From a virus (taxonomy: Duplodnaviria > Caudoviricetes), in the IMG/VR virus record IMGVR_UViG_3300014205_000228, positions 1,734-65,733 of that record: 64,000 nucleotides of DNA; one strand, 5' to 3'. Position 1 is the first letter of the stretch. Each line of letters opens with the position of its first letter. Shown one piece after another: positions 3,313-11,549 of the stretch. The position numbers and the translations under genes were made by a program. The notes beneath the pieces are model-generated. The model was not told where the DNA came from. It saw only the letters and a list, made by a program, of their open reading frames with translations, and ran no database searches.

Positions 3313-3708
3313 ATGAGTGAAGAAGGAGCTGTTGTAGCACCCGTTGTAAAAGCGACTAGGGTTAAAAAGATTTCCAAAACCTTCGAAGGTGATGTACTTG
3401 TCATCACGGCTGGTGATAAGGTTATGAAGTTTGACATCAATACCTATTCTGATGCTATCAAACATCAAGCTATGCTCCATGGCTTCAGCCAGAAATTGGG
3501 CGATTCCGCTGCAGGTTGCGAATCAGCTGCTGAGGCTGCTGAGTACATCCAGAAGACTGCCGAAGCTCTTGCCAAGGGTGATTGGACCACAAAGTCCCCG
3601 GCTGGTGAGAAGATTACCAAAAAGTCCCTGCTTGATAAGTTCGCTGGTCTGTCTGAAAAGGAACGAGCTCTTGCTGAGCCTCTGATGAAAAAGCTGGGCC
3701 TGATCTAA
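3313..3708 (+). CDS. phage hypothetical protein
   Basis: Strong RBS; codon usage suggests high expression; LHGFSQKLGDSAAG motif; weak similarity to 57442-57966. Confidence 0.75.
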   Translation: MSEEGAVVAPVVKATRVKKISKTFEGDVLVITAGDKVMKFDINTYSDAIKHQAMLHGFSQKLGDSAAGCESAAEAAEYIQKTAEALAKGDWTTKSPAGEKITKKSLLDKFAGLSEKERALAEPLMKKLGLI

Positions 3709-3718
3709 TTATGGCCTG

Positions 3719-3785
3719 GAGAGGGAATCTTGGAGGTTTCGGCCTACCTCCTTATCCTCCTTGATTCCCTTTCCCTTTCCTTTAG
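3719..3785 (+). terminator. probable intrinsic terminator / structured leader
   Basis: GAGGGAATC/GATTCCCT and GGAGGT/ACCTCC nested stems followed by a pyrimidine tract. Confidence 0.45.
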
Positions 3786-3920
3786 TTATACTATTAAAGG
3801 GGTGGCGTGGCGTAAGAATAAAGACGCGCATCTCCAGTAGAGTGGATACAGCTTAGCGCTAGAGAAATGTATCATATAGGTATCGAATCCTATCACACCC
3901 CCTGCTTTAATAGTATAACT
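3784..3920 (+). ncRNA. tRNA-like RNA, copy A (8-nt T-loop, 16-bp outer stem)
   Basis: D-arm GCGT-AAGAATAAAG-ACGC; T-arm ATAGG-TATCGAAT-CCTAT; long variable arm GATACA/TGTATC; perfect 16-bp inverted repeat AGTTATACTATTAAAG/CTTTAATAGTATAACT. Confidence 0.7.
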
Positions 3921-3928
3921 GGTATAAT
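3920..3928 (+). promoter_or_regulatory. extended -10 promoter candidate
   Basis: TGGTATAAT (TGnTATAAT) upstream of the 3965 operon. Confidence 0.4.
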
Positions 3929-3964
3929 ATCCGCACAAGTCTAAAAAGAAAGGTGAAATAAATC

Positions 3965-4177
3965 ATGACCTTCGATGAAGCTTTCCAGAAATTACAAGAA
4001 GAATTTACAGATCAATACATCGTATTAAGGTACGAAAAAAATCCTTATAAGTATGATTTATGTGGTTATGTAGAAGGCAAAGGCTGGTCTGGTGATTGTA
4101 AGTCAATTGGTGAAGTAATTATGCAACTCAACAGAGAAGAAATAACGCCAGAGGCTATTGGACCGGAGGTGTCTTAA
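3965..4177 (+). CDS. hypothetical protein
   Basis: ORF with AAGGTG RBS, coupled to next ORF. Confidence 0.65.
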   Translation: MTFDEAFQKLQEEFTDQYIVLRYEKNPYKYDLCGYVEGKGWSGDCKSIGEVIMQLNREEITPEAIGPEVS

Positions 4178-4863
4178 TGGTACAAATTAATGAGAGTGAC
4201 GGAGTTCATAAGCAATGGTACGAGGATGCTAAGAAAGTCACCTTGGAAGAATTGCCAGGGTTCTTGAATCGCCTCTTGAATGATTACGGTCACGACTACG
4301 GAACAATTTGTCACGCCTTGGCCGCAGGTTCGATAGCAGCAGCAGGGGGGATGAACAAATCAAAGCAGGGAGGAATAACCGGATTTCAGGCCGGGGCGGT
4401 AATGTGGGAATTTATACGCAACTGGAATTATTCTCACAATAAGTGCGGGTTGAGAATCGTTGACTTCGATAATTTCCTCTACCCGCAATATTCAGACCAG
4501 TACCAAAAGACAATTTCACCGAATATATGGGACGCTATTACAAAAGAGGCTCATCGTAATATTGAAGATGCTGACCAGAAATACGCAGAATACCTGATTG
4601 CCAAGGAACAGTACGACAAAGATATAACTGCCTTCATTGAAAAACATCCCGACTATCACGAGAGGAAAGAATATTATGACCACCTTGACTGCGGGACGGG
4701 CGACGAATGGAATACGTACTACGAAAAACGAGACAGTGGCTTTGATTTCGCACCAACCGAACCTTATGCGCCGATAACCAAAGGATCAAGAGTTTATTCC
4801 CATTGGGAAGACATCATAGCGGGGATGGTTCCCTTTGGTTACACGATAAAGGAGGTAAACTAA
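4177..4863 (+). CDS. phage hypothetical protein
   Basis: 228-aa ORF, TAATG overlaps on both sides. Confidence 0.8.
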   Translation: MVQINESDGVHKQWYEDAKKVTLEELPGFLNRLLNDYGHDYGTICHALAAGSIAAAGGMNKSKQGGITGFQAGAVMWEFIRNWNYSHNKCGLRIVDFDNFLYPQYSDQYQKTISPNIWDAITKEAHRNIEDADQKYAEYLIAKEQYDKDITAFIEKHPDYHERKEYYDHLDCGTGDEWNTYYEKRDSGFDFAPTEPYAPITKGSRVYSHWEDIIAGMVPFGYTIKEVN

Positions 4864-5801
4864 TGCCCGAACTTGACAATACAAAAGCATCTTGTTTTAG
4901 AACATGTAAGCGCAAATATTACTGGCAGCATATCAGAGGACTTCAGTCAAACTTTGGATCAAGTGCAATACGCTACGGAGTAACGTGGCACGGAATACTT
5001 GAGGGCTATTATAAATATATCAAAGAGAATGGTTGGGCTGATAAAGAGCTCGCAATCTCAGCTGCTCTTGAGCTTGGTAAGAAGAAGTGGGATGAGGAAA
5101 CAACAAAGAAAACTTTTCTTCCTGATTATCGTACCTTTGATGCTGCTTGTACAGCCCTTCTTCATTATCTTTCCTTTTATCAGAAAGATGAAGAATACAT
5201 TAAGATAATCAATACTGAAGCTAAGTTCAAATTAGAAATCAAACCTGATAATGATGACGAAGAGCAGATACTGTACTACATTATGGATAGGGGAGATCAT
5301 TCTGCACTGTACTTTACTGGTCGCCTTGATCTTCAAGTAGAAATGAACTTTGCTAATTGGATTCTTGACTTTAAGACCACAAGTCAGAATCTTTCAATGC
5401 AAGCATCGAGACTTAACAGGTCAGGGCAGTTAATTGGGTATTCCTATGCTGGAAAGCATGCTTTGGAGTTTCCTGCAGAAGGGTGTTTGGTTGGACTTGC
5501 TTATGTTAGTGCTTACAAAAATAAGAAGACCGGAGAGTATGGAGATGTAACTACGGACTTTGGAAGAATTCCTCAGATATATAATGACAAGGATTTAGTT
5601 GAGTGGAAAAAGTCTTTTCTTGATACTGCACTTGACATCACAACAAGCATTGACGCAAACAAATGGCCAGTTAATTTTGACTCGTGCTATCAATACGGAC
5701 CTTGTACGTACACTAAACTCTGTGATCAGGGTGGAAAACTTGATGACGTTATCACAGAAGGATTTCATGTAAGTCATTGGGATGTTTTAAAGGAAGAATA
5801 A
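4863..5801 (+). CDS. PD-(D/E)XK (RecB/Cas4-like) exonuclease
   Basis: CKRKYYW, GRLDLQ, ILDFKT, QLIGY, C-terminal CYQYGPCTYTKLC; start moved to ATG 4863 after GGAGG. Confidence 0.85.
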   Translation: MPELDNTKASCFRTCKRKYYWQHIRGLQSNFGSSAIRYGVTWHGILEGYYKYIKENGWADKELAISAALELGKKKWDEETTKKTFLPDYRTFDAACTALLHYLSFYQKDEEYIKIINTEAKFKLEIKPDNDDEEQILYYIMDRGDHSALYFTGRLDLQVEMNFANWILDFKTTSQNLSMQASRLNRSGQLIGYSYAGKHALEFPAEGCLVGLAYVSAYKNKKTGEYGDVTTDFGRIPQIYNDKDLVEWKKSFLDTALDITTSIDANKWPVNFDSCYQYGPCTYTKLCDQGGKLDDVITEGFHVSHWDVLKEE

Positions 5802-6031
5802 TGGCTAAACTTACCTTAACCAAAGCCCAAAGATGGGCAAGAGAACGTAACACTGCTAAAGGTCAGATCAGTGCAATGACCTCCCTTAGTAGGATGGTAG
5901 CAGATAAGGCTTCCATACTTTCTCACGAAAAGGAAGCTCTTCAGGCAATTATTGTGGTGCTTGGAAAGATCTTGGGAGATTGGAAGGATAACGAAAGTCT
6001 GTCAAAAACGAAGTATTTTAACTTGAAATAA
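5801..6031 (+). CDS. hypothetical basic protein
   Basis: TAATG coupling to nuclease; start moved to ATG 5801. Confidence 0.6.
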   Translation: MAKLTLTKAQRWARERNTAKGQISAMTSLSRMVADKASILSHEKEALQAIIVVLGKILGDWKDNESLSKTKYFNLK

Positions 6032-6033
6032 AT

Positions 6034-6158
6034 GAAAGTGGTGGTGTAGTGGTTAGCACGCGAAAATTTCCTTATTCGACTTTTCCCCGAAAGGTGGCGC
6101 AGAATAGGGTTACTTCAATTAGGATGACGAGACGCAGGTTCGATTCCTGTCCACTTTC
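6034..6158 (+). ncRNA. Y-RNA/tRNA chimera 1 (tRNA scaffold, Ro helix in place of anticodon arm)
   Basis: Acceptor (G)AAAGTGG/CCACTTT(C); D-arm GTGTAGTGGTTAGCAC; T-arm GCAGG-TTCGATT-CCTGT; insert CCCTTATTC-GACTTTTCC-CCGAAAGG-TGGCGCA-GAATAGGG-TTACTTC. Confidence 0.8.
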
Positions 6159-6168
6159 TTCAGTATTT

Positions 6169-6299
6169 AGATCGGTAGCTCAGTTGGTAGAGCAAAAGAC
6201 CAAAAAGACCTTAACCGCTTATTCTCCGAAAGGTAGCGAAGGTTATGGATACTTCAAACAAACTTTGGACCGTGGGTTCGAGTCCCACCCGATCTACCA
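6169..6299 (+). ncRNA. Y-RNA/tRNA chimera 2 with encoded CCA
   Basis: Acceptor AGATCGG/CCGATCT-A-CCA; D-arm GCTCAGTTGGTAGAGC; T-arm GTGGG-TTCGAGT-CCCAC; insert CCTTAACC-GCTTATTCT-CCGAAAGG-TAGCGAA-GGTTATGG-ATACTTC. Confidence 0.85.
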
Positions 6300-6304
6300 A
6301 AACT

Positions 6305-6369
6305 TGCTGATGGCGAAGATTACAGTTACTTCTTTGGCGAAAAATACTGTAATCGTTTATTCCTCAGCA
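6305..6369 (+). ncRNA. minimal Y-RNA-like RNA 3
   Basis: TGCTGA-TGGCGAA-GATTACAG-TTACTTC...CTGTAATC-GTTTATTCC-TCAGCA. Confidence 0.75.
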
Positions 6370-6385
6370 TTATTTAAGATTTAAA

Positions 6386-6476
6386 GCAGGTGGCGTAAAC
6401 TATGGATACTTCGGTTAAGACCAGCAATGGTTGCCAAGATCAAACTTGGCTACTCCTTAGTTGCCTGTTCCCCTGC
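6386..6476 (+). ncRNA. Y-RNA-like RNA 4
   Basis: GCAGG-TGGCGTA-AACTATGG-ATACTTC...CCTTAGTT-GCCTGTTCC-CCTGC. Confidence 0.75.
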
Positions 6477-6489
6477 CCTTCAGCATAAT

Positions 6490-6560
6490 AACGTAACTCT
6501 GCAGAGAGGCACTGTGTACGCTCAGACCGAGCAGAAAGTGCAAACCTCCGGAGTTACGTT
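6490..6560 (+). ncRNA. long hairpin RNA without the Ro motif
   Basis: AACGTAACTC/GAGTTACGTT 10-bp stem with nested GAG/CTC, GCAC/GTGC, GCTC/GAGC stems. Confidence 0.55.
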
Positions 6561-6566
6561 TTAAAG

Positions 6567-6643
6567 AAATGAGTGGCGAAAATTTCAGGTACTTCCTGTT
6601 AAGAAGGCCGAAAGGCTTCCTGAAATTGATTGTTCCCTCATTT
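6567..6643 (+). ncRNA. Y-RNA-like RNA 5
   Basis: AAATGAG-TGGCGAA-AATTTCAGG-TACTTC...CCTGAAATT-GATTGTTCC-CTCATTT. Confidence 0.75.
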
Positions 6644-6675
6644 AACTTCTTAAACTTTAGAAAGGAAATTTAGAC

Positions 6676-7992
6676 ATGGCGAAGATCAACACCGCAGCAA
6701 AAGCAATTCCTGTTTACACTCACGAAGGAGCAAAAGCATCACTTCACGTAAATGCTTATCAAATGCTTCGAAGATCAGTGTGTTCCTGTATGCTTTGGGA
6801 AAGAGAGTTTTATGAGGATGGAGAAACCATTGCTTCAAGAATTGCTTCTTTGATTAAAGAAGTCGATCCTAACAAAGTTGCTGAACTGGCAGTAGAAGCA
6901 AGAGAGAAATTCAAACTTCGGCATGTTCCTCTTCTTCTTGCCAGAGAATTGGCTAGACAAGGATATAAAGAAACTGCTATGGTTCTTAATAGAGTAATAC
7001 AAAGACCTGATGAATTAACAGAGTTTTTGGCTATCTATTGGAAAGATGGTAGATGTCCTTTGTCTGCACAGATAAAGAAAGGATTAGCAAAAGCCTTTAC
7101 CAAATTTACTGCGTATAGTTTAGCTAAGTATAATCGAGACGATAAAATAAAACTTAAAGATGTATTGTTTCTTTCCCACGCAAAACCAGAATCAATTGGA
7201 CAAGCAGCGGTCTGGAAAGAATTAATTGCTGGTACTCTTGAATCTCCTGACACATGGGAAGTTCAGTTGTCTTCTGGTGCTGACAAGAAAGAGACATGGG
7301 AACGCCTTCTTTCGCAGGGTAAACTTGGTGGACTTGCGCTGCTTAGAAATCTTCGTAATATGAAGATGGCTGGTGTTACTACAAGTTTAATTATTGAGGC
7401 AATTAAAGATATTAACACAGAACGAATCCTTCCTTATCGCTTTATCGCAGCCGCACGATATGCTCTTGACCTCGAACCTTATCTTGAGACTGCAATGCTT
7501 AAGTGCATCAAAGACACAAAAAGACTTAGTGGACACACTGTTGTTCTGGTAGATGTGTCTGGTAGTATGGAGGATAAACTATCTTCAAAGTCAAATCTTA
7601 CCAGAATGGATGCTGCTTGCGGAGTAGCAATGGTTCTTAGAGAGTTATGCGAAAGAGCTACTATATTAACATTCTCACAATCTGTTGTGCAAGTTCCTTC
7701 AAGAAGAGGATTTGCTTTAAGAGATATTATTGTTGGTAGTCAAACACATGGATCTACTTATCTTGGTAAAGCAGTAAATGCTGTTTATTCTGAGATTAAA
7801 GATGTAGATAGGTTAATAGTATTTACTGACGAGCAGAGTCATGATCATGTTCCTGATCCTTCTGGAAATGCTTACATAATTAATGTCGCATCTGCTAGAA
7901 ATGGAGTTGGGTATGGCAAGTGGATTCATGTTGACGGATTCTCAGAATCAATAATCGACTGGATTAAAGAGTATGAAACTATTGAAAGGTAA
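6676..7992 (+). CDS. rsr: Ro60/Rsr RNA-binding protein (TROVE + vWA)
   Basis: TROVE motifs (THEG, LRHVPLLL, YSLAKY, TWEVQLS, ALLRNLRN, LPYRFIAA) and vWA MIDAS DVSGS plus IVFTDEQ. Confidence 0.95.
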   Translation: MAKINTAAKAIPVYTHEGAKASLHVNAYQMLRRSVCSCMLWEREFYEDGETIASRIASLIKEVDPNKVAELAVEAREKFKLRHVPLLLARELARQGYKETAMVLNRVIQRPDELTEFLAIYWKDGRCPLSAQIKKGLAKAFTKFTAYSLAKYNRDDKIKLKDVLFLSHAKPESIGQAAVWKELIAGTLESPDTWEVQLSSGADKKETWERLLSQGKLGGLALLRNLRNMKMAGVTTSLIIEAIKDINTERILPYRFIAAARYALDLEPYLETAMLKCIKDTKRLSGHTVVLVDVSGSMEDKLSSKSNLTRMDAACGVAMVLRELCERATILTFSQSVVQVPSRRGFALRDIIVGSQTHGSTYLGKAVNAVYSEIKDVDRLIVFTDEQSHDHVPDPSGNAYIINVASARNGVGYGKWIHVDGFSESIIDWIKEYETIER

Positions 7993-7995
7993 ACA

Positions 7996-8346
7996 ATGGC
8001 GAAAAAGAATCGTCCAATTAACGGACAAATCTCCATCGACTTAAAGTCACTGGATGAAAAATCCAGATTATGCATCGAGTGTAAATACTGCTGTGAATAT
8101 GTTAATTTACCTCTACTACAGGGTCCAGGCTATGCTGAATTTTATCAGAATGTTAGAGGTATGGAGTTACATTTCAGAAGTTTTATGCCCTGGATAGTTG
8201 TTTACAGTCCTTGTCAGCATCTAACTGTTAATGGATGTGGTATCTACAAGAAGAGACCATCTGCTTGTAGAGACTACGATGGAAGGTTAGATCTTTTTCA
8301 CCCTGAGAAATGTCTTTGGAATAAAATAAAGAAAGAAGGTGTTTAA
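7996..8346 (+). CDS. YkgJ-family (CxxCxxCC) cysteine-cluster protein
   Basis: CIECKYCC...PCQHL...CGIYKKRPSACRDY. Confidence 0.8.
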   Translation: MAKKNRPINGQISIDLKSLDEKSRLCIECKYCCEYVNLPLLQGPGYAEFYQNVRGMELHFRSFMPWIVVYSPCQHLTVNGCGIYKKRPSACRDYDGRLDLFHPEKCLWNKIKKEGV

Positions 8347-9100
8347 ATTGCCAAGCGCTATGGATGTAACAGTGGATACTGAGTTCTTAAAAGTAATGTG
8401 CGTAGGTGATCCAGGAACTGGCAAGTCGATATTTGCAAGTACTTTTCCTACACCAGGATACATATTCGACTTTTCAGGTGGAATAGTAGGTTACAGAGGA
8501 CTTAAATTTGATTACGATCAGTTCTCCATGTCCCCAATAGGTTGGGTTGAGTTCGAGAAGGCTTTAATGCGAGTTAAAGCAGATGTTAAAGAAGGCAAAT
8601 ACAAAACTGTTGTGGTAGATGACCTTTCTGCAATGACAGATTTAGCTATGGAACGAAGTCTTCAGCTTGACCCGAAGAGAAATCCCGCCGGTGGACCTCT
8701 GTGGCAAGTTCACTATGGAATGGTTAAGAATCTGATGGAAGGCAGACTTCGGCAGATCCTTGATATGAATGCTAATATAGTCTTTATCGCACATCTTAAC
8801 GTAATCAAGGATGAAGACACAGGAAACATTGTAGGAGTTGAGCCAATGCTTACTGGACAACTTTCAACTAAAATTCCTGGCTATTTCGATGAAGTATATT
8901 ATTGCTCCACAATTAAAAAGGACGGAGATGTTAGATGGGTAGTGCAGACTGTTCCTGTAGGTTGGAATAAAGCAAGATCAAGAATAAGCGGAAAGCAGCG
9001 GTTACTTCCAGATATCATGAATAATGACTATAATGAAGTAATGGCTTACATTAAAGGAGAAAAAGTAAAGGAGGTTAAAGCGACGATAATAAAGAAATAA
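8339..9100 (+). CDS. AAA ATPase, Sak4-like recombinase (AAA_24-type)
   Basis: Walker A GDPGTGKS, VVVDDLS, FIAH, IPGYFDEV; lies between exonuclease and SSB-like gene. Confidence 0.8.
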   Translation: MFKLPSAMDVTVDTEFLKVMCVGDPGTGKSIFASTFPTPGYIFDFSGGIVGYRGLKFDYDQFSMSPIGWVEFEKALMRVKADVKEGKYKTVVVDDLSAMTDLAMERSLQLDPKRNPAGGPLWQVHYGMVKNLMEGRLRQILDMNANIVFIAHLNVIKDEDTGNIVGVEPMLTGQLSTKIPGYFDEVYYCSTIKKDGDVRWVVQTVPVGWNKARSRISGKQRLLPDIMNNDYNEVMAYIKGEKVKEVKATIIKK

Positions 9101-10724: not shown

Positions 10725-11549
10725 ATGATTTGTATACATCATAACGATCTGGATGGCAAATGTGCAGCAGCGATCGTAAAAAAGTATTTTGGTAGCACAG
10801 AAATAATATTTCACGAAACCGACTATAAGGACACAGCACCTTTAACAAAACTTGCAGGTGAAGATGTCATAATTGTTGATTTCAGTTATCCACCAGAAGT
10901 TATGTTAAATATTGTTGAGCTTTCTAATTCTGTTGTTTGGATAGATCACCATGCAACAGCTAAAGATTATCCGTATCAGTATCTAACGGGATTACGAAAC
11001 TTTGAAGATAAGAAGTTTTCAGGCTGCGAATTAGCATGGATGTTCTACTTTCCTATGGAAACCATGCCACTGAGTGTTCAGTTAATAGGAGATTATGATA
11101 AGTGGGCATTAAAATTAAAACCAGAATGTTTCCAATTTTATGAAGGAATGAAAGTTAAGAATGATACTAGCCCGCAAAGTTTACTATGGGAGTTGTTATT
11201 ACAAGATAATTTTTATGTGTCATCTATTATAGATTCAGGCTGCACTGCTGTGGCATACCGTGATAATTATTGTAATGATCTTTGTAAATCTTTTGGTTAC
11301 GAAACTGAAATAAGCGGTCATGGTGCTTACGCTTGCAATCAATTTATGTTCGGGTCAGGAGGTTTTGGGCATAGATTCCATCAATATCCACTTTGTATTG
11401 CCTACATTCATGACGGTGAGCAATTTACAGTATCAATGTATTCTGAAACTGTTGATGTTGGTCAAATTGCTAAGACATTCGGAGGTGGTGGACATAAAGG
11501 AGCAGCAGGATTTGTGTGTAAAAACCTTCCATTTACAATAAAACTTTAA
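10725..11549 (+). CDS. DHH/DHHA1 phosphoesterase
   Basis: HHNDLDG, VDFS, WIDHH, GGGGHKGAAG. Confidence 0.9.
   Translation: MICIHHNDLDGKCAAAIVKKYFGSTEIIFHETDYKDTAPLTKLAGEDVIIVDFSYPPEVMLNIVELSNSVVWIDHHATAKDYPYQYLTGLRNFEDKKFSGCELAWMFYFPMETMPLSVQLIGDYDKWALKLKPECFQFYEGMKVKNDTSPQSLLWELLLQDNFYVSSIIDSGCTAVAYRDNYCNDLCKSFGYETEISGHGAYACNQFMFGSGGFGHRFHQYPLCIAYIHDGEQFTVSMYSETVDVGQIAKTFGGGGHKGAAGFVCKNLPFTIKL

What the first reader, a model, noticed from the sequence alone, without database searches (positions are those of the whole stretch)
6034..7992. Phage Ro60 gene preceded by an array of five Y-RNA-like RNAs in two different topologies
Seen: in the 640 nt before the TROVE/vWA gene, one bipartite motif recurs five times. 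One strand is T(G/A)GCG(A/C/T)A + 8-9-nt helix strand + TACTTC. The other is the helix complement + G-N-Y-T-N-T-T-C-(C/T). The helix sequences differ between copies but stay complementary (GATTACAG/CTGTAATC, AACTATGG/CCTTAGTT, AATTTCAGG/CCTGAAATT, GGTTATGG/CCTTAACC, GAATAGGG/CCCTTATTC), i.e. compensatory change within one genome. Established: bacterial Ro60 (Rsr) binds Y RNAs encoded next to it through a stem with a reported GNCGAA-type 5' motif, tethers PNPase and acts with RNA repair; some phages are reported to carry Ro with YrlA. Inference: one phage Ro is loaded with a panel of different RNA adaptors or decoys, each presenting a different module (tRNA elbow, anticodon-like loop, bare hairpin). 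No RtcB is present in the window.
Basis: partly seen in the sequence, partly recalled or inferred. Interest (0 to 1): 0.92.

Follow-up and report, generated by a model that had tools for sequence, protein, structure and literature searches.

The report
Phage Ro60 gene with five Y-RNAs
A 65-kb phage carries, just upstream of its Ro60-like gene, five small structured RNAs sharing one Ro60-type "handle"; such sets are common beside this gene in related phages, but two of the five are written in true tRNA order with an open acceptor end, a form I did not find in the papers I could search.

Summary
The 5' motif TRGCGNA-N9-TACTTC occurs five times in 64 kb, all between 6095 and 6595 on the + strand (0.4 expected). 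Each copy has a complementary helix strand followed by GNYTNTTCY. The gene at 6676-7992 is a Ro60 homologue (TROVE, Ro60-type vWA, MIDAS). Its closest solved relative is Thermus phage phiLo Ro60, which binds two upstream CGAA-motif RNAs in vitro.

The array itself is not unusual. A covariance model of the handle found 197 matches in 100 Ro loci, all on the Ro strand, with heavy covariation. Tandem Y RNAs beside Ro60 are already in print.

The newer part is the pair of RNAs at 6034-6158 and 6169-6299. They run acceptor, D arm, Ro handle closed by GAAA, T arm, acceptor. This reverses the circular permutation that defines YrlA. I found 17 such RNAs on 12 phage contigs. All 7 acceptor pairs and 7 of 8 handle pairs show compensatory changes. 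CCA is encoded in 8 of 17.

This scan has reported phage Ro60-like proteins with partner RNAs before, on other DNA and with a different handle.

Verdict: new variant of a known kind.

The parts
6034..6158 (+). tRNA-order Y RNA 1. Acceptor 6035-6041 / 6151-6157, with G6034 (-1) able to pair with C6158 (73). D arm 6044-6059. Handle 3' strand: helix 6070-6077 and tail 6078-6086. CC-GAAA-GG cap 6087-6094. Handle 5' strand: TGGCGCA 6095-6101 and helix 6102-6109. TTACTTC 6110-6116. T arm 6134-6150. No encoded CCA.
   Evidence: Sequence; model R1 124.5 bits; all 26 model pairs form; free fold gives an 8-bp acceptor and the handle helix; Rfam tRNA only 20.7 bits, below the gathering score.
6169..6299 (+). 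tRNA-order Y RNA 2. Acceptor AGATCGG 6169-6175 / CCGATCT 6289-6295, A73 at 6296, encoded CCA 6297-6299. Canonical D and T arms. A 5-bp anticodon-stem remnant (AAAAG/CTTTG) encloses the handle. Handle: helix' 6209-6216, tail 6217-6225, CC-GAAA-GG 6226-6233, TAGCGAA 6234-6240, helix 6241-6248, ATACTTC 6249-6255.
   Evidence: Rfam tRNA 51.6 bits (gathering 29) with a 64-nt insert in place of the anticodon loop; R1 138.5 bits; one U-U mismatch in the handle helix; ARAGORN does not call it.
6305..6369 (+). Hairpin-type Y RNA 3, normal topology. Terminal stem TGCTGA/TCAGCA. TGGCGAA 6311-6317. Helix 6318-6325 / 6347-6354. TTACTTC, then a short apical loop containing GAAAA. Tail GTTTATTCC 6355-6363.
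   Evidence: R2 76.4 bits; fold z-score -4.3; orthologous middle copies in L004, L005, L029 and L034.
6385..6477 (+). Y RNA 4, normal topology. Terminal stem GCAGG/CCTGC. TGGCGTA 6391-6397. Helix 6398-6405 / 6455-6462 with one U-U mismatch. ATACTTC. A 47-nt module with two small hairpins. Tail GCCTGTTCC 6463-6471.
   Evidence: R2 36.6 bits, E 1.5e-06, the weakest of the five; folds.
6490..6560 (+). Extra 12-bp-stemmed hairpin between Y RNA 4 and 5. It has no handle motif, and whether it belongs to the set is unknown.
   Evidence: Fold z-score -4.6; no significant Rfam match, no R1 or R2 match; the closest relatives have no corresponding space in their arrays.
6567..6643 (+). Y RNA 5, normal topology. 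Terminal stem AATGAG/CTCATT. TGGCGAA 6574-6580. 9-bp helix 6581-6589 / 6619-6627. TACTTC, whose CTTC can close a CTGTTAA 7-nt loop with GAAG. Then a GCC-GAAA-GGC hairpin. Tail GATTGTTCC 6628-6636. The RNA ends about 30 nt before the Ro start codon.
   Evidence: R2 48.4 bits; fold z-score -3.2; the same module is found in L034.
6676..7992 (+). Ro60-like protein, 438 aa: TROVE region, Ro60-type vWA domain and a MIDAS DxSxS (VDVSGSM).
   Evidence: Pfam TROVE 2.2e-18 and vWA_Ro60 2.6e-08; PDB 9KOP/9L5Y (phiLo Ro60) E 2e-25 over residues 14-392; D293, S295 and S297 invariant in 15 relatives.

Best explanation
The 640 nt before the phage Ro60 gene encode five small RNAs of the bacterial/phage Y RNA kind.

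The shared handle. Each RNA carries the same Ro60 handle. It is an asymmetric internal loop formed by 5'-UGGYG(A/U)A and 3'-GNYURUUCC, followed by an 8-9 bp helix of free sequence and then the near-invariant UACUUC. The handle is the inferred docking site for the adjacent Ro60. The parts beyond the handle differ between copies and are the inferred effector-binding ends.

The two topologies. Three RNAs (6305-6369, 6385-6477, 6567-6643) have the usual Y RNA layout, with both ends in the handle stem. Two RNAs (6034-6158, 6169-6299) are the same thing circularly permuted back into tRNA order. The acceptor stem is open, and CCA is encoded in one of them. The D and T arms keep the elbow nucleotides. 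The handle sits where the anticodon arm would be, sealed by a GAAA tetraloop.

Inferred maturation. The array is transcribed with the surrounding early genes. The two tRNA-order RNAs are cut out by the host tRNA enzymes (RNase P, 3' trimming, CCA addition). This gives them protected, tRNA-like ends.

Inferred function. Ro60 binds all five RNAs and is thereby coupled to different host partners. PNPase is the precedent. For the tRNA-shaped copies, tRNA-binding proteins are the likely partners.

Origin. The permutation is explained by tandem duplication followed by deletion within such arrays. Two adjacent units of either order contain a unit of the other order across their junction.

What is shown and what is inferred. 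Shown: the motifs, the folds, the covariation, the linkage to Ro60 and the homology of the protein. Inferred: expression, processing, binding and function.
For: - Motif enrichment and clustering: 5 matches against 0.4 expected.
- The free-energy fold of the whole array separates it into exactly these units.
- Handle model R2 finds 197 matches at E<=1e-3 in 100 Ro loci, all on the Ro strand. In the window it hits only the three normal copies.
- On the 150 best R2 matches, 93% of cells pair against 62% in shuffles, and 15 of 16 pairs show double changes.
- tRNA-order model R1 finds 17 members on 12 phage contigs. 95.9% of cells pair against 68% in shuffles. Double changes occur in 7/7 acceptor, 7/8 handle, 2/2 cap and 3/5 T-stem pairs. 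Slid controls pair at 40-47%.
- CCA follows position 73 in 8 of 17. Position -1 can pair with 73 in 13 of 17 (G:C 8, U:A 4, A:U 1).
- The closest Ro relatives share the order tRNA-order, hairpin, hairpin, Ro. 6 of 7 members of the window's Ro clade carry the tRNA-order form.
- The Ro protein is homologous to phiLo Ro60. That protein binds two upstream CGAA stem-bulge-stem RNAs with a KD of about 17 nM, and each CGAA base matters (PMC12135203). The equivalents of its K141, K142 and R178 are K, K and K here.
- Processing precedent: M. smegmatis YrlA is cut by RNase P and receives CCA (PMC4201824).
Against: - There is no transcript, processing or binding datum for this phage.
- Only 3 of 5 copies have the CGAA that was mutated in the phiLo work. 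R137 of phiLo aligns to Ser here.
- Rfam YrlA does not reach its threshold on any copy.
- Copy 4 is a weak member (36.6 bits, one U-U mismatch).
- L004, the closest relative, has a tRNA-order copy with a poorly paired acceptor (5/7) and handle (6/8), so such copies can decay.
- The covariation alignments were fitted to my models and the sequences are related, which inflates the shuffle contrasts. The slid controls share the first bias.
Confidence: 0.8

Rival explanations
1. The repeats act in cis. They are Ro60-binding sites in the leader of the Ro60 mRNA that let the protein regulate its own translation or message stability, and are not stable trans-acting RNAs.
For: The last unit ends about 30 nt before the start codon, and no promoter or terminator stands out between the array and the gene. 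The array abuts the upstream ORF, which ends at 6031, so co-transcription is likely.
Against: - In several related loci the same RNAs lie downstream of Ro (L071, L074, L078, L089, L104).
- The tRNA-order units carry processing signals: a 7-8 bp acceptor and an encoded CCA in 8 of 17.
- Known bacterial Y RNAs are also operon-embedded yet accumulate as free RNAs (PMC4201824).
- The two roles do not exclude each other.
Confidence: 0.1
2. Copies 1 and 2 are mainly tRNA-derived elements, either processing punctuation or degenerate or unusual tRNAs. Their handle-like insert is incidental, so only copies 3-5 are Ro ligands.
For: Copy 2 scores above the Rfam tRNA threshold. The tertiary-contact nucleotides (U8, A14, G18G19, TTCRA) are intact in both. 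In L012 a full anticodon-like arm (CTGTTAA loop) persists beside the handle arm.
Against: - The insert carries the full two-strand handle with the same invariant positions as the normal copies.
- Its helix covaries in 7 of 8 pairs across 17 RNAs.
- Copy 2 has no 7-nt anticodon loop.
- The insert is 64 nt, and I saw nothing intron-like in it.
- These RNAs occur beside Ro genes.
Confidence: 0.06
3. The real RNA is a canonical YrlA spanning the junction: 5' strand of copy 1, T arm of copy 1, spacer as acceptor hairpin, D arm of copy 2, 3' strand of copy 2.
For: Rfam YrlA aligns to 6131-6193 at 25.1 bits, E 0.009. Chen et al. warn that dimeric tRNAs mimic YrlA in such searches (PMC4201824).
Against: - The score is far below the gathering score of 69.
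- The cross-junction handle helix, GAATAGGG with CCTTAACC, has two adjacent mismatches, against 8/8 and 7/8 within the units.
- CCACTTT and AGATCGG pair poorly.
- The free fold chooses the within-unit pairing.
- Acceptor covariation is 7/7 across 17 RNAs.
Confidence: 0.02
4. Chance similarity, or DNA-level repeats such as iterons or protein operators, with no RNA role.
For: None beyond the repetition itself.
Against: Compensatory changes and strand-specific G-U pairs. All 197 family matches lie on the Ro strand. The motif count is far above shuffles.
Confidence: 0.01

Closest known systems
YrlA (Rfam RF02553; Chen et al. 2014, PMC4201824; Wang et al. 2018, 10.1101/312249)
   Same: Encoded on the same strand next to Ro60. 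GNCGAA-type 5' motif in the Ro stem. A conserved UA after the stem. A tRNA-like D/T elbow in some members. Related phages in this Ro clade (MET23-P3, CcrColossus) carry YrlA-order members with the same handle.
   Different: YrlA has both ends in the Ro stem, the T arm before the D arm, and a closed acceptor with no free CCA. Copies 1-2 have the reverse of all three. Copies 3-5 lack the tRNA domain. No copy reaches the Rfam threshold. In Salmonella and M. smegmatis YrlA only the 5' strand is recognisable, whereas here both strands of the handle are conserved.
YrlB of Salmonella/M. smegmatis, and Yrl1/Yrl2 of Thermus phage phiLo (PMC12135203)
   Same: Short stem-bulge-stem RNAs with a CGAA motif and no tRNA domain, encoded beside Ro60. 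In phiLo there are two of them upstream of a Ro60 that is the closest solved homologue of this protein. Copies 3-5 work like these.
   Different: Here there are five RNAs, not two, with a longer conserved handle (UACUUC and a 3' GNYURUUCC). I could not compare sequences with Yrl1/2 because they are not given in the text I could read.
RNase P-cleaved, CCA-tailed form of M. smegmatis YrlA (PMC4201824)
   Same: A Y RNA with an open, tRNA-like acceptor end bearing CCA.
   Different: In M. smegmatis that form is made by cutting a closed acceptor loop, which leaves a two-piece RNA with an open Ro stem. Here the gene itself is in tRNA order and the Ro stem is sealed by a tetraloop, so the product would be a single piece.
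Dimeric-tRNA origin model of YrlA (Sim and Wolin 2018, as described in 10.1101/312249) and the duplication-deletion route to circular permutation
   Same: Two tandem tRNA-order units contain a YrlA-order unit across their junction, and the reverse holds too. The Rfam YrlA model picks up exactly that junction, and R1 picks up junctions of adjacent YrlA-order units at low score.
   Different: The published model starts from ordinary tRNAs. Here each unit already carries a complete Ro handle in its anticodon arm. The direction of change is not resolved: at least 5 gains or losses are needed on the Ro tree.
b7a-tRNA (Burroughs and Aravind 2016, known to me only through 10.1101/312249)
   Same: A predicted non-coding RNA in authentic tRNA order that is said to lie occasionally next to Rsr.
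   Different: It is mainly associated with Band-7 proteins and RtcB. I do not know whether it carries a Ro handle. The paper is not held, so this comparison is open.
D. radiodurans Yrn1
   Same: A Y RNA in which the D-like element precedes the T arm.
   Different: Its ends are in the Ro stem, which takes the place of the acceptor. It has no open acceptor or CCA, and the D arm is doubtful (PMC4201824).

Membership tests
Ro60 / TROVE proteins | TROVE (HEAT-repeat) region | tested here: met
   PF05731 2.2e-18, 67 bits against a cut-off of 23. Only profile positions 266-368 align. phmmer to phiLo Ro60 covers residues 14-392.
Ro60 / TROVE proteins | C-terminal Ro60-type vWA domain with a MIDAS DxSxS | tested here: met
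   PF25045 34.4 bits against a cut-off of 27.7. VDVSGSM is present, with D293, S295 and S297 invariant in 15 relatives.
Ro60 / TROVE proteins | Closed ring fold | not tested
   No structure was predicted. It is inferred from homology to 9KOP.
Ro60 / TROVE proteins | Basic RNA-contact residues of phiLo Ro60 (R137, K141, K142, R178) | tested here: inconclusive
   Using the alignment and an assumed 9-residue tag offset, these align to S, K, K and K here.
Y RNA (operational definition: a small RNA bound by Ro60) | Physical binding to Ro60 | not testable with these tools
   It needs EMSA or co-purification. The only support is by analogy with phiLo (PMC12135203).
YrlA (RF02553) | Score at or above the Rfam gathering threshold (69 bits) | tested here: not met
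   The best hit in the window is 25.1 bits, and it spans the junction of copies 1 and 2.
YrlA (RF02553) | 5' and 3' ends paired in the Ro stem; T arm 5' of D arm; closed acceptor hairpin | tested here: not met
   Copies 1-2 have the D arm before the T arm, an open acceptor and a capped Ro stem. Copies 3-5 have no D or T arms.
YrlA (RF02553) | GNCGAAN0-1G near the Ro-stem 5' strand | tested here: inconclusive
   Copy 3 fits strictly (GGCGAAG). Copy 5 has GGCGAA with no G after it. Copy 2 has AGCGAAG. Copies 1 and 4 have CGCA and CGTA. The family consensus is UGGYG(A/U)AG.
YrlA (RF02553) | Within 4 kb of Ro60 and on the same strand | tested here: met
   All five lie 30-640 nt upstream on the + strand.
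YrlB / phiLo Yrl-type short Y RNAs | Stem-bulge-stem with a CGAA-type motif, no tRNA domain, beside Ro60 | tested here: met
   Copies 3 and 5 have CGAA; copy 4 has CGUA. See the folds and R2 hits.
tRNA | 7-bp acceptor, D and T arms with conserved tertiary nucleotides | tested here: met
   This holds for copies 1 and 2. Copy 2 scores 51.6 bits on RF00005. Copy 1 scores 20.7, below the threshold.
tRNA | Anticodon arm with a 7-nt loop in the normal place | tested here: not met
   Copy 2 has a 64-nt handle insert instead. Copy 1 has only a degenerate stem-loop after the handle. ARAGORN calls neither.
b7a-tRNA | Features as defined by Burroughs and Aravind 2016 | not testable with these tools
   The paper is not held. 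Only a second-hand description is available.

The most novel reading that the evidence does not exclude
The tRNA-order Y RNAs are matured like tRNAs, by RNase P and CCA addition. The subgroup with a G-1:C73 pair (8 of 17, including window copy 1) is recognised by histidyl-tRNA synthetase or other tRNA-handling proteins while Ro60 holds the other arm. The phage would then make a Ro60-tethered, possibly charged, tRNA look-alike. Such an RNA could serve as a decoy or sensor for host tRNA-targeting defences, or could deliver Ro60 to the translation machinery.
Probability: 0.12. Interest if true: 0.85.

Novelty: new variant of a known kind. Interest (0 to 1): 0.6.

Why it matters
Bacterial Y RNAs are described as circularly permuted tRNAs with a closed acceptor and no free CCA. 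Their effector partners and their origin are still open questions.

This phage clade offers natural Y RNAs in the opposite, true tRNA order. They have an open acceptor, often an encoded CCA, and frequently a -1:73 pair. They sit side by side with ordinary Y RNAs that carry the same handle.

That has three consequences:
- It gives a direct test of whether a Y RNA can enter tRNA maturation or charging pathways.
- It supplies living intermediates for the idea that YrlA arose from tandem tRNA-like units.
- It defines a two-strand handle consensus (UGGYG(A/U)A ... UACUUC ... GNYURUUCC) that can be used to annotate hundreds of unannotated RNAs. It can also correct mis-called tRNAs, such as the 'tRNA-Gln' of CcrColossus.

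The array itself, and the pairing of phage Ro60 with upstream Y-like RNAs, are not new.

Tried and rejected
No reads could be laid, and I did not try another route.
- Promoter and terminator scan of 3500-8500: counts are at shuffle level, with no clear unit boundaries.
- Exact pattern for the GAAA-capped permuted form across IMG/VR: only one other contig matched (L005/L027), so the pattern was too strict. The covariance model was needed instead.
- My first regex scanner mis-paired copy 2 with copy 3's strand. It also called several 'permuted' hits that were only junctions of adjacent normal units. These were rejected by inspection.
- R1 hits below about 60 bits are mostly such junctions or plain tRNAs (H = 0 pairs). 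They were not counted.
- R1 on 80 bacterial loci gave 5 weak hits (53-67 bits) that I could not confirm as true tRNA-order members.
- Literature: the Annual Review (PMC10870794) and Burroughs and Aravind 2016 are not held. The supplement of Chen 2014 listing the 22 phages is not held. I therefore cannot exclude that a tRNA-order Y RNA is mentioned there.
- The putative nucleotidyltransferase at 2162-2944 has no Pfam or NCBIfam hit, so there is no support for a phage CCA enzyme.
- Anticodon-like loops after UACUUC vary (CTGCTAA, CTTGAAA, CTGTTAA and others), so no single tRNA identity can be read from them.
Full report
**Observation**

Window 6034-6675 lies between an 84-aa ORF that ends at 6031 and a 438-aa ORF at 6676-7992.

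- The pattern TRGCGNA-N9-TACTTC occurs five times in the 64-kb window, at 6095, 6234, 6311, 6391 and 6574, all on the + strand. Shuffles give 0.40 on average and never 5.
- Each copy has a strand complementary to the 8-9 nt after the motif, followed by GNYTNTTCY (6078, 6217, 6355, 6463, 6628). That short tail is common by itself, so only its placement counts.
- Copies 3 and 5 pair perfectly. Copy 1 has one G-U. Copies 2 and 4 each have one U-U at the same helix position.
- An unconstrained fold of 6030-6660 breaks into exactly these five domains plus a handle-less hairpin at about 6490-6560.

**The gene**

- The ORF hits TROVE (2.2e-18) and the Ro60-type vWA domain (2.6e-08). It keeps a MIDAS DxSxS that is invariant in 15 relatives.
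- Its best solved relative is the Ro60 of Thermus phage phiLo (9KOP/9L5Y, E 2e-25, residues 14-392).
- That protein was shown to bind two CGAA-motif stem-bulge-stem RNAs encoded upstream of its gene, and to form ternary complexes with host PNPase (PMC12135203).
- Three of the four RNA-contact residues named there align to lysines here.
- The window is a 65.7-kb tailed-phage record. Ro sits in the replication module (PD-(D/E)XK nuclease, AAA_24, DHH phosphoesterase, polymerase, primase). No RtcB is present.

**The two topologies**

Copies 3-5 have the ordinary Y RNA layout: terminal stem, 5' motif, helix, UACUUC, a variable apical part, helix complement, 3' motif, terminal stem.

Copies 1-2 read differently: acceptor 5' strand, D arm, linker, helix complement, 3' motif, CC-GAAA-GG, 5' motif, helix, UACUUC, linker, T arm, acceptor 3' strand.

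- Rfam's tRNA model scores copy 2 at 51.6 bits, with a 64-nt insert where the anticodon loop should be. CCA follows A73.
- Copy 1 has no CCA, but G6034 can pair with C6158.
- YrlA is described as a circularly permuted tRNA with a closed acceptor and no free CCA (10.1101/312249). Copies 1-2 undo that permutation.
- The only Rfam YrlA signal (25 bits; gathering score 69) spans the junction of copies 1 and 2. Pairing and the free fold contradict it.

**Relatives**

tblastn finds this Ro in 85 phage records, including Xanthomonas, Caulobacter/Brevundimonas, Rhizobium and crAss-like phages. Pattern scans find 480 IMG/VR stretches and 469 or more bacterial stretches. Xanthomonas phage MET23-P3 has five handle RNAs upstream of Ro and CcrColossus has eight, several of them in YrlA order.

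Normal-topology handle (model R2):
- I built R2 from 11 short normal-topology RNAs.
- It finds 197 matches at E<=1e-3 in 100 sources, every one on the Ro strand. Most lie within a few hundred nt upstream, and a few loci have them downstream.
- In the window it hits only 6305-6369, 6385-6477 and 6568-6642.
- On the 150 best matches, 93% of cells pair against 62% in shuffles, and 15 of 16 pairs show double changes.
- The consensus is UGGYG(A/U)AG ... NUACUUC ... GNYURUUCC.
- 85 of 100 sources hold at least one member. Sets of 2-6 are usual by this conservative count.
- Bacterial loci of this Ro clade (Acidobacteriota, Bradyrhizobium and others) carry the same handle RNAs.

tRNA-order form (model R1):
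- I built R1 from six sequences.
- It finds 17 good members on 12 phage contigs.
- 95.9% of cells pair against 68% in shuffles and 40-47% in slid controls. Compensatory changes occur in 7/7 acceptor, 7/8 handle, 2/2 cap, 2/4 D and 3/5 T pairs.
- CCA is encoded in 8 of 17. Position -1 can pair with 73 in 13 of 17.
- Two subtypes exist, and both are present in the window. In one (copy 1) the handle arm precedes an anticodon-like arm, which is a straight permutation of the phage YrlA-order units, including the GCUAAAAUYU linker. In the other (copy 2) the handle is stacked on an anticodon-stem remnant.
- The closest Ro relatives share the gene order tRNA-order, hairpin, hairpin, Ro.
- On a Ro tree, 6 of 7 members of the window's clade (support 98) carry the form. 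The other six carriers are scattered. At least 5 changes are forced, against 11.4 for shuffled labels.
- In bacterial loci the form is rare or absent.

**Interpretation**

The five RNAs are members of a large, conserved family of Ro60-linked RNAs related to YrlA, YrlB and the phiLo Yrl RNAs. They most likely bind the adjacent Ro60 through the shared handle and present different outer modules. This last step is inference.

The tRNA-order members would be released and end-protected by the host's tRNA enzymes. M. smegmatis YrlA shows that Y RNAs can be RNase P and CCA-enzyme substrates (PMC4201824).

The permutation follows naturally from tandem arrays: two adjacent units of one order contain a unit of the other order across their junction. 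This fits the published dimeric-tRNA origin model and explains why each of my models picks up weak junction hits.

**Novelty**

- Phage Ro60 with upstream Y-like RNAs is already known: 22 phages in Chen 2014, and phiLo in 2025. This scan has also reported phage Ro60-like proteins with sets of partner RNAs on other DNA, with a different handle.
- A gene in tRNA order with an open acceptor or CCA and a capped Ro handle did not turn up in the papers I could search.
- Chen et al. discarded hits overlapping tandem tRNA genes, which would have hidden this form.
- Two key sources were not readable, and 'b7a-tRNA' remains an unchecked candidate for overlap.

**Limits**

- There are no expression, end-mapping or binding data.
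- The model-fitted alignments and the relatedness of the sequences inflate the covariation contrasts.
- The host is unknown.
- Copy 4 and the extra hairpin are weakly supported as family members.

Noticed in passing
window 6490-6560: A strong hairpin (12-bp outer stem, fold z-score -4.6) sits inside the array between Y RNA 4 and 5. It lacks the handle motifs. The closest relatives have no room for a counterpart in their arrays.
   Followed up: partly
L002 1628-1695 (Caulobacter phage CcrColossus, NC_019406.1 109217-109284): The annotated 'tRNA-Gln' overlaps the 5' half of a handle-bearing YrlA-order RNA (GGTGGCGTAG ... TTACTTC ... T arm). It is probably a mis-called Y RNA. The 5' handle strand itself resembles a tRNA acceptor/D-arm junction.
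   Followed up: partly
17 tRNA-order RNAs (alignment A5), position -1 and 73: The base before the acceptor pairs with the discriminator in 13 of 17 (G:C 8, U:A 4, A:U 1). It is often preceded by a conserved ATG. An 8-bp acceptor with G-1:C73 is the hallmark of bacterial tRNA-His.
   Followed up: partly
L012 2415-2542 and 2695-2770: One tRNA-order Y RNA keeps a full anticodon-like arm (TTCAA-CTGTTAA-TTGAG, Asn-type GUU) in addition to the handle arm, giving five arms in all. An apparently ordinary tRNA gene is embedded in the same Y RNA array.
   Followed up: no
hairpin-type members, e.g. window 6333-6346, L005, L009, L029: The short apical loops of the hairpin-type Y RNAs share a (U)GAAAA element a few nt after UACUUC. 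The UUC and GAA can pair, which suggests a conserved mini-stem or a second recognition element.
   Followed up: no
L003 1-168 (crAss-like phage cr106_1): A tmRNA is annotated about 2.3 kb upstream of the TROVE gene of this crAss-like phage (Rfam tmRNA partial match, 29 bits). My regex scan found no convincing GNCGAA-type handle RNA in this locus; I did not run the covariance models on it.
   Followed up: no
It is hit by neither R1 nor R2, and by no Rfam family at gathering score.
   Followed up: no
window 10725-11549: A DHH/DHHA1 phosphoesterase (RecJ or NrnA-like) lies 2.7 kb downstream of Ro. If it is a nanoRNase it could belong to an RNA-turnover theme, but it may equally be a DNA exonuclease of the replication module.
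   Followed up: no
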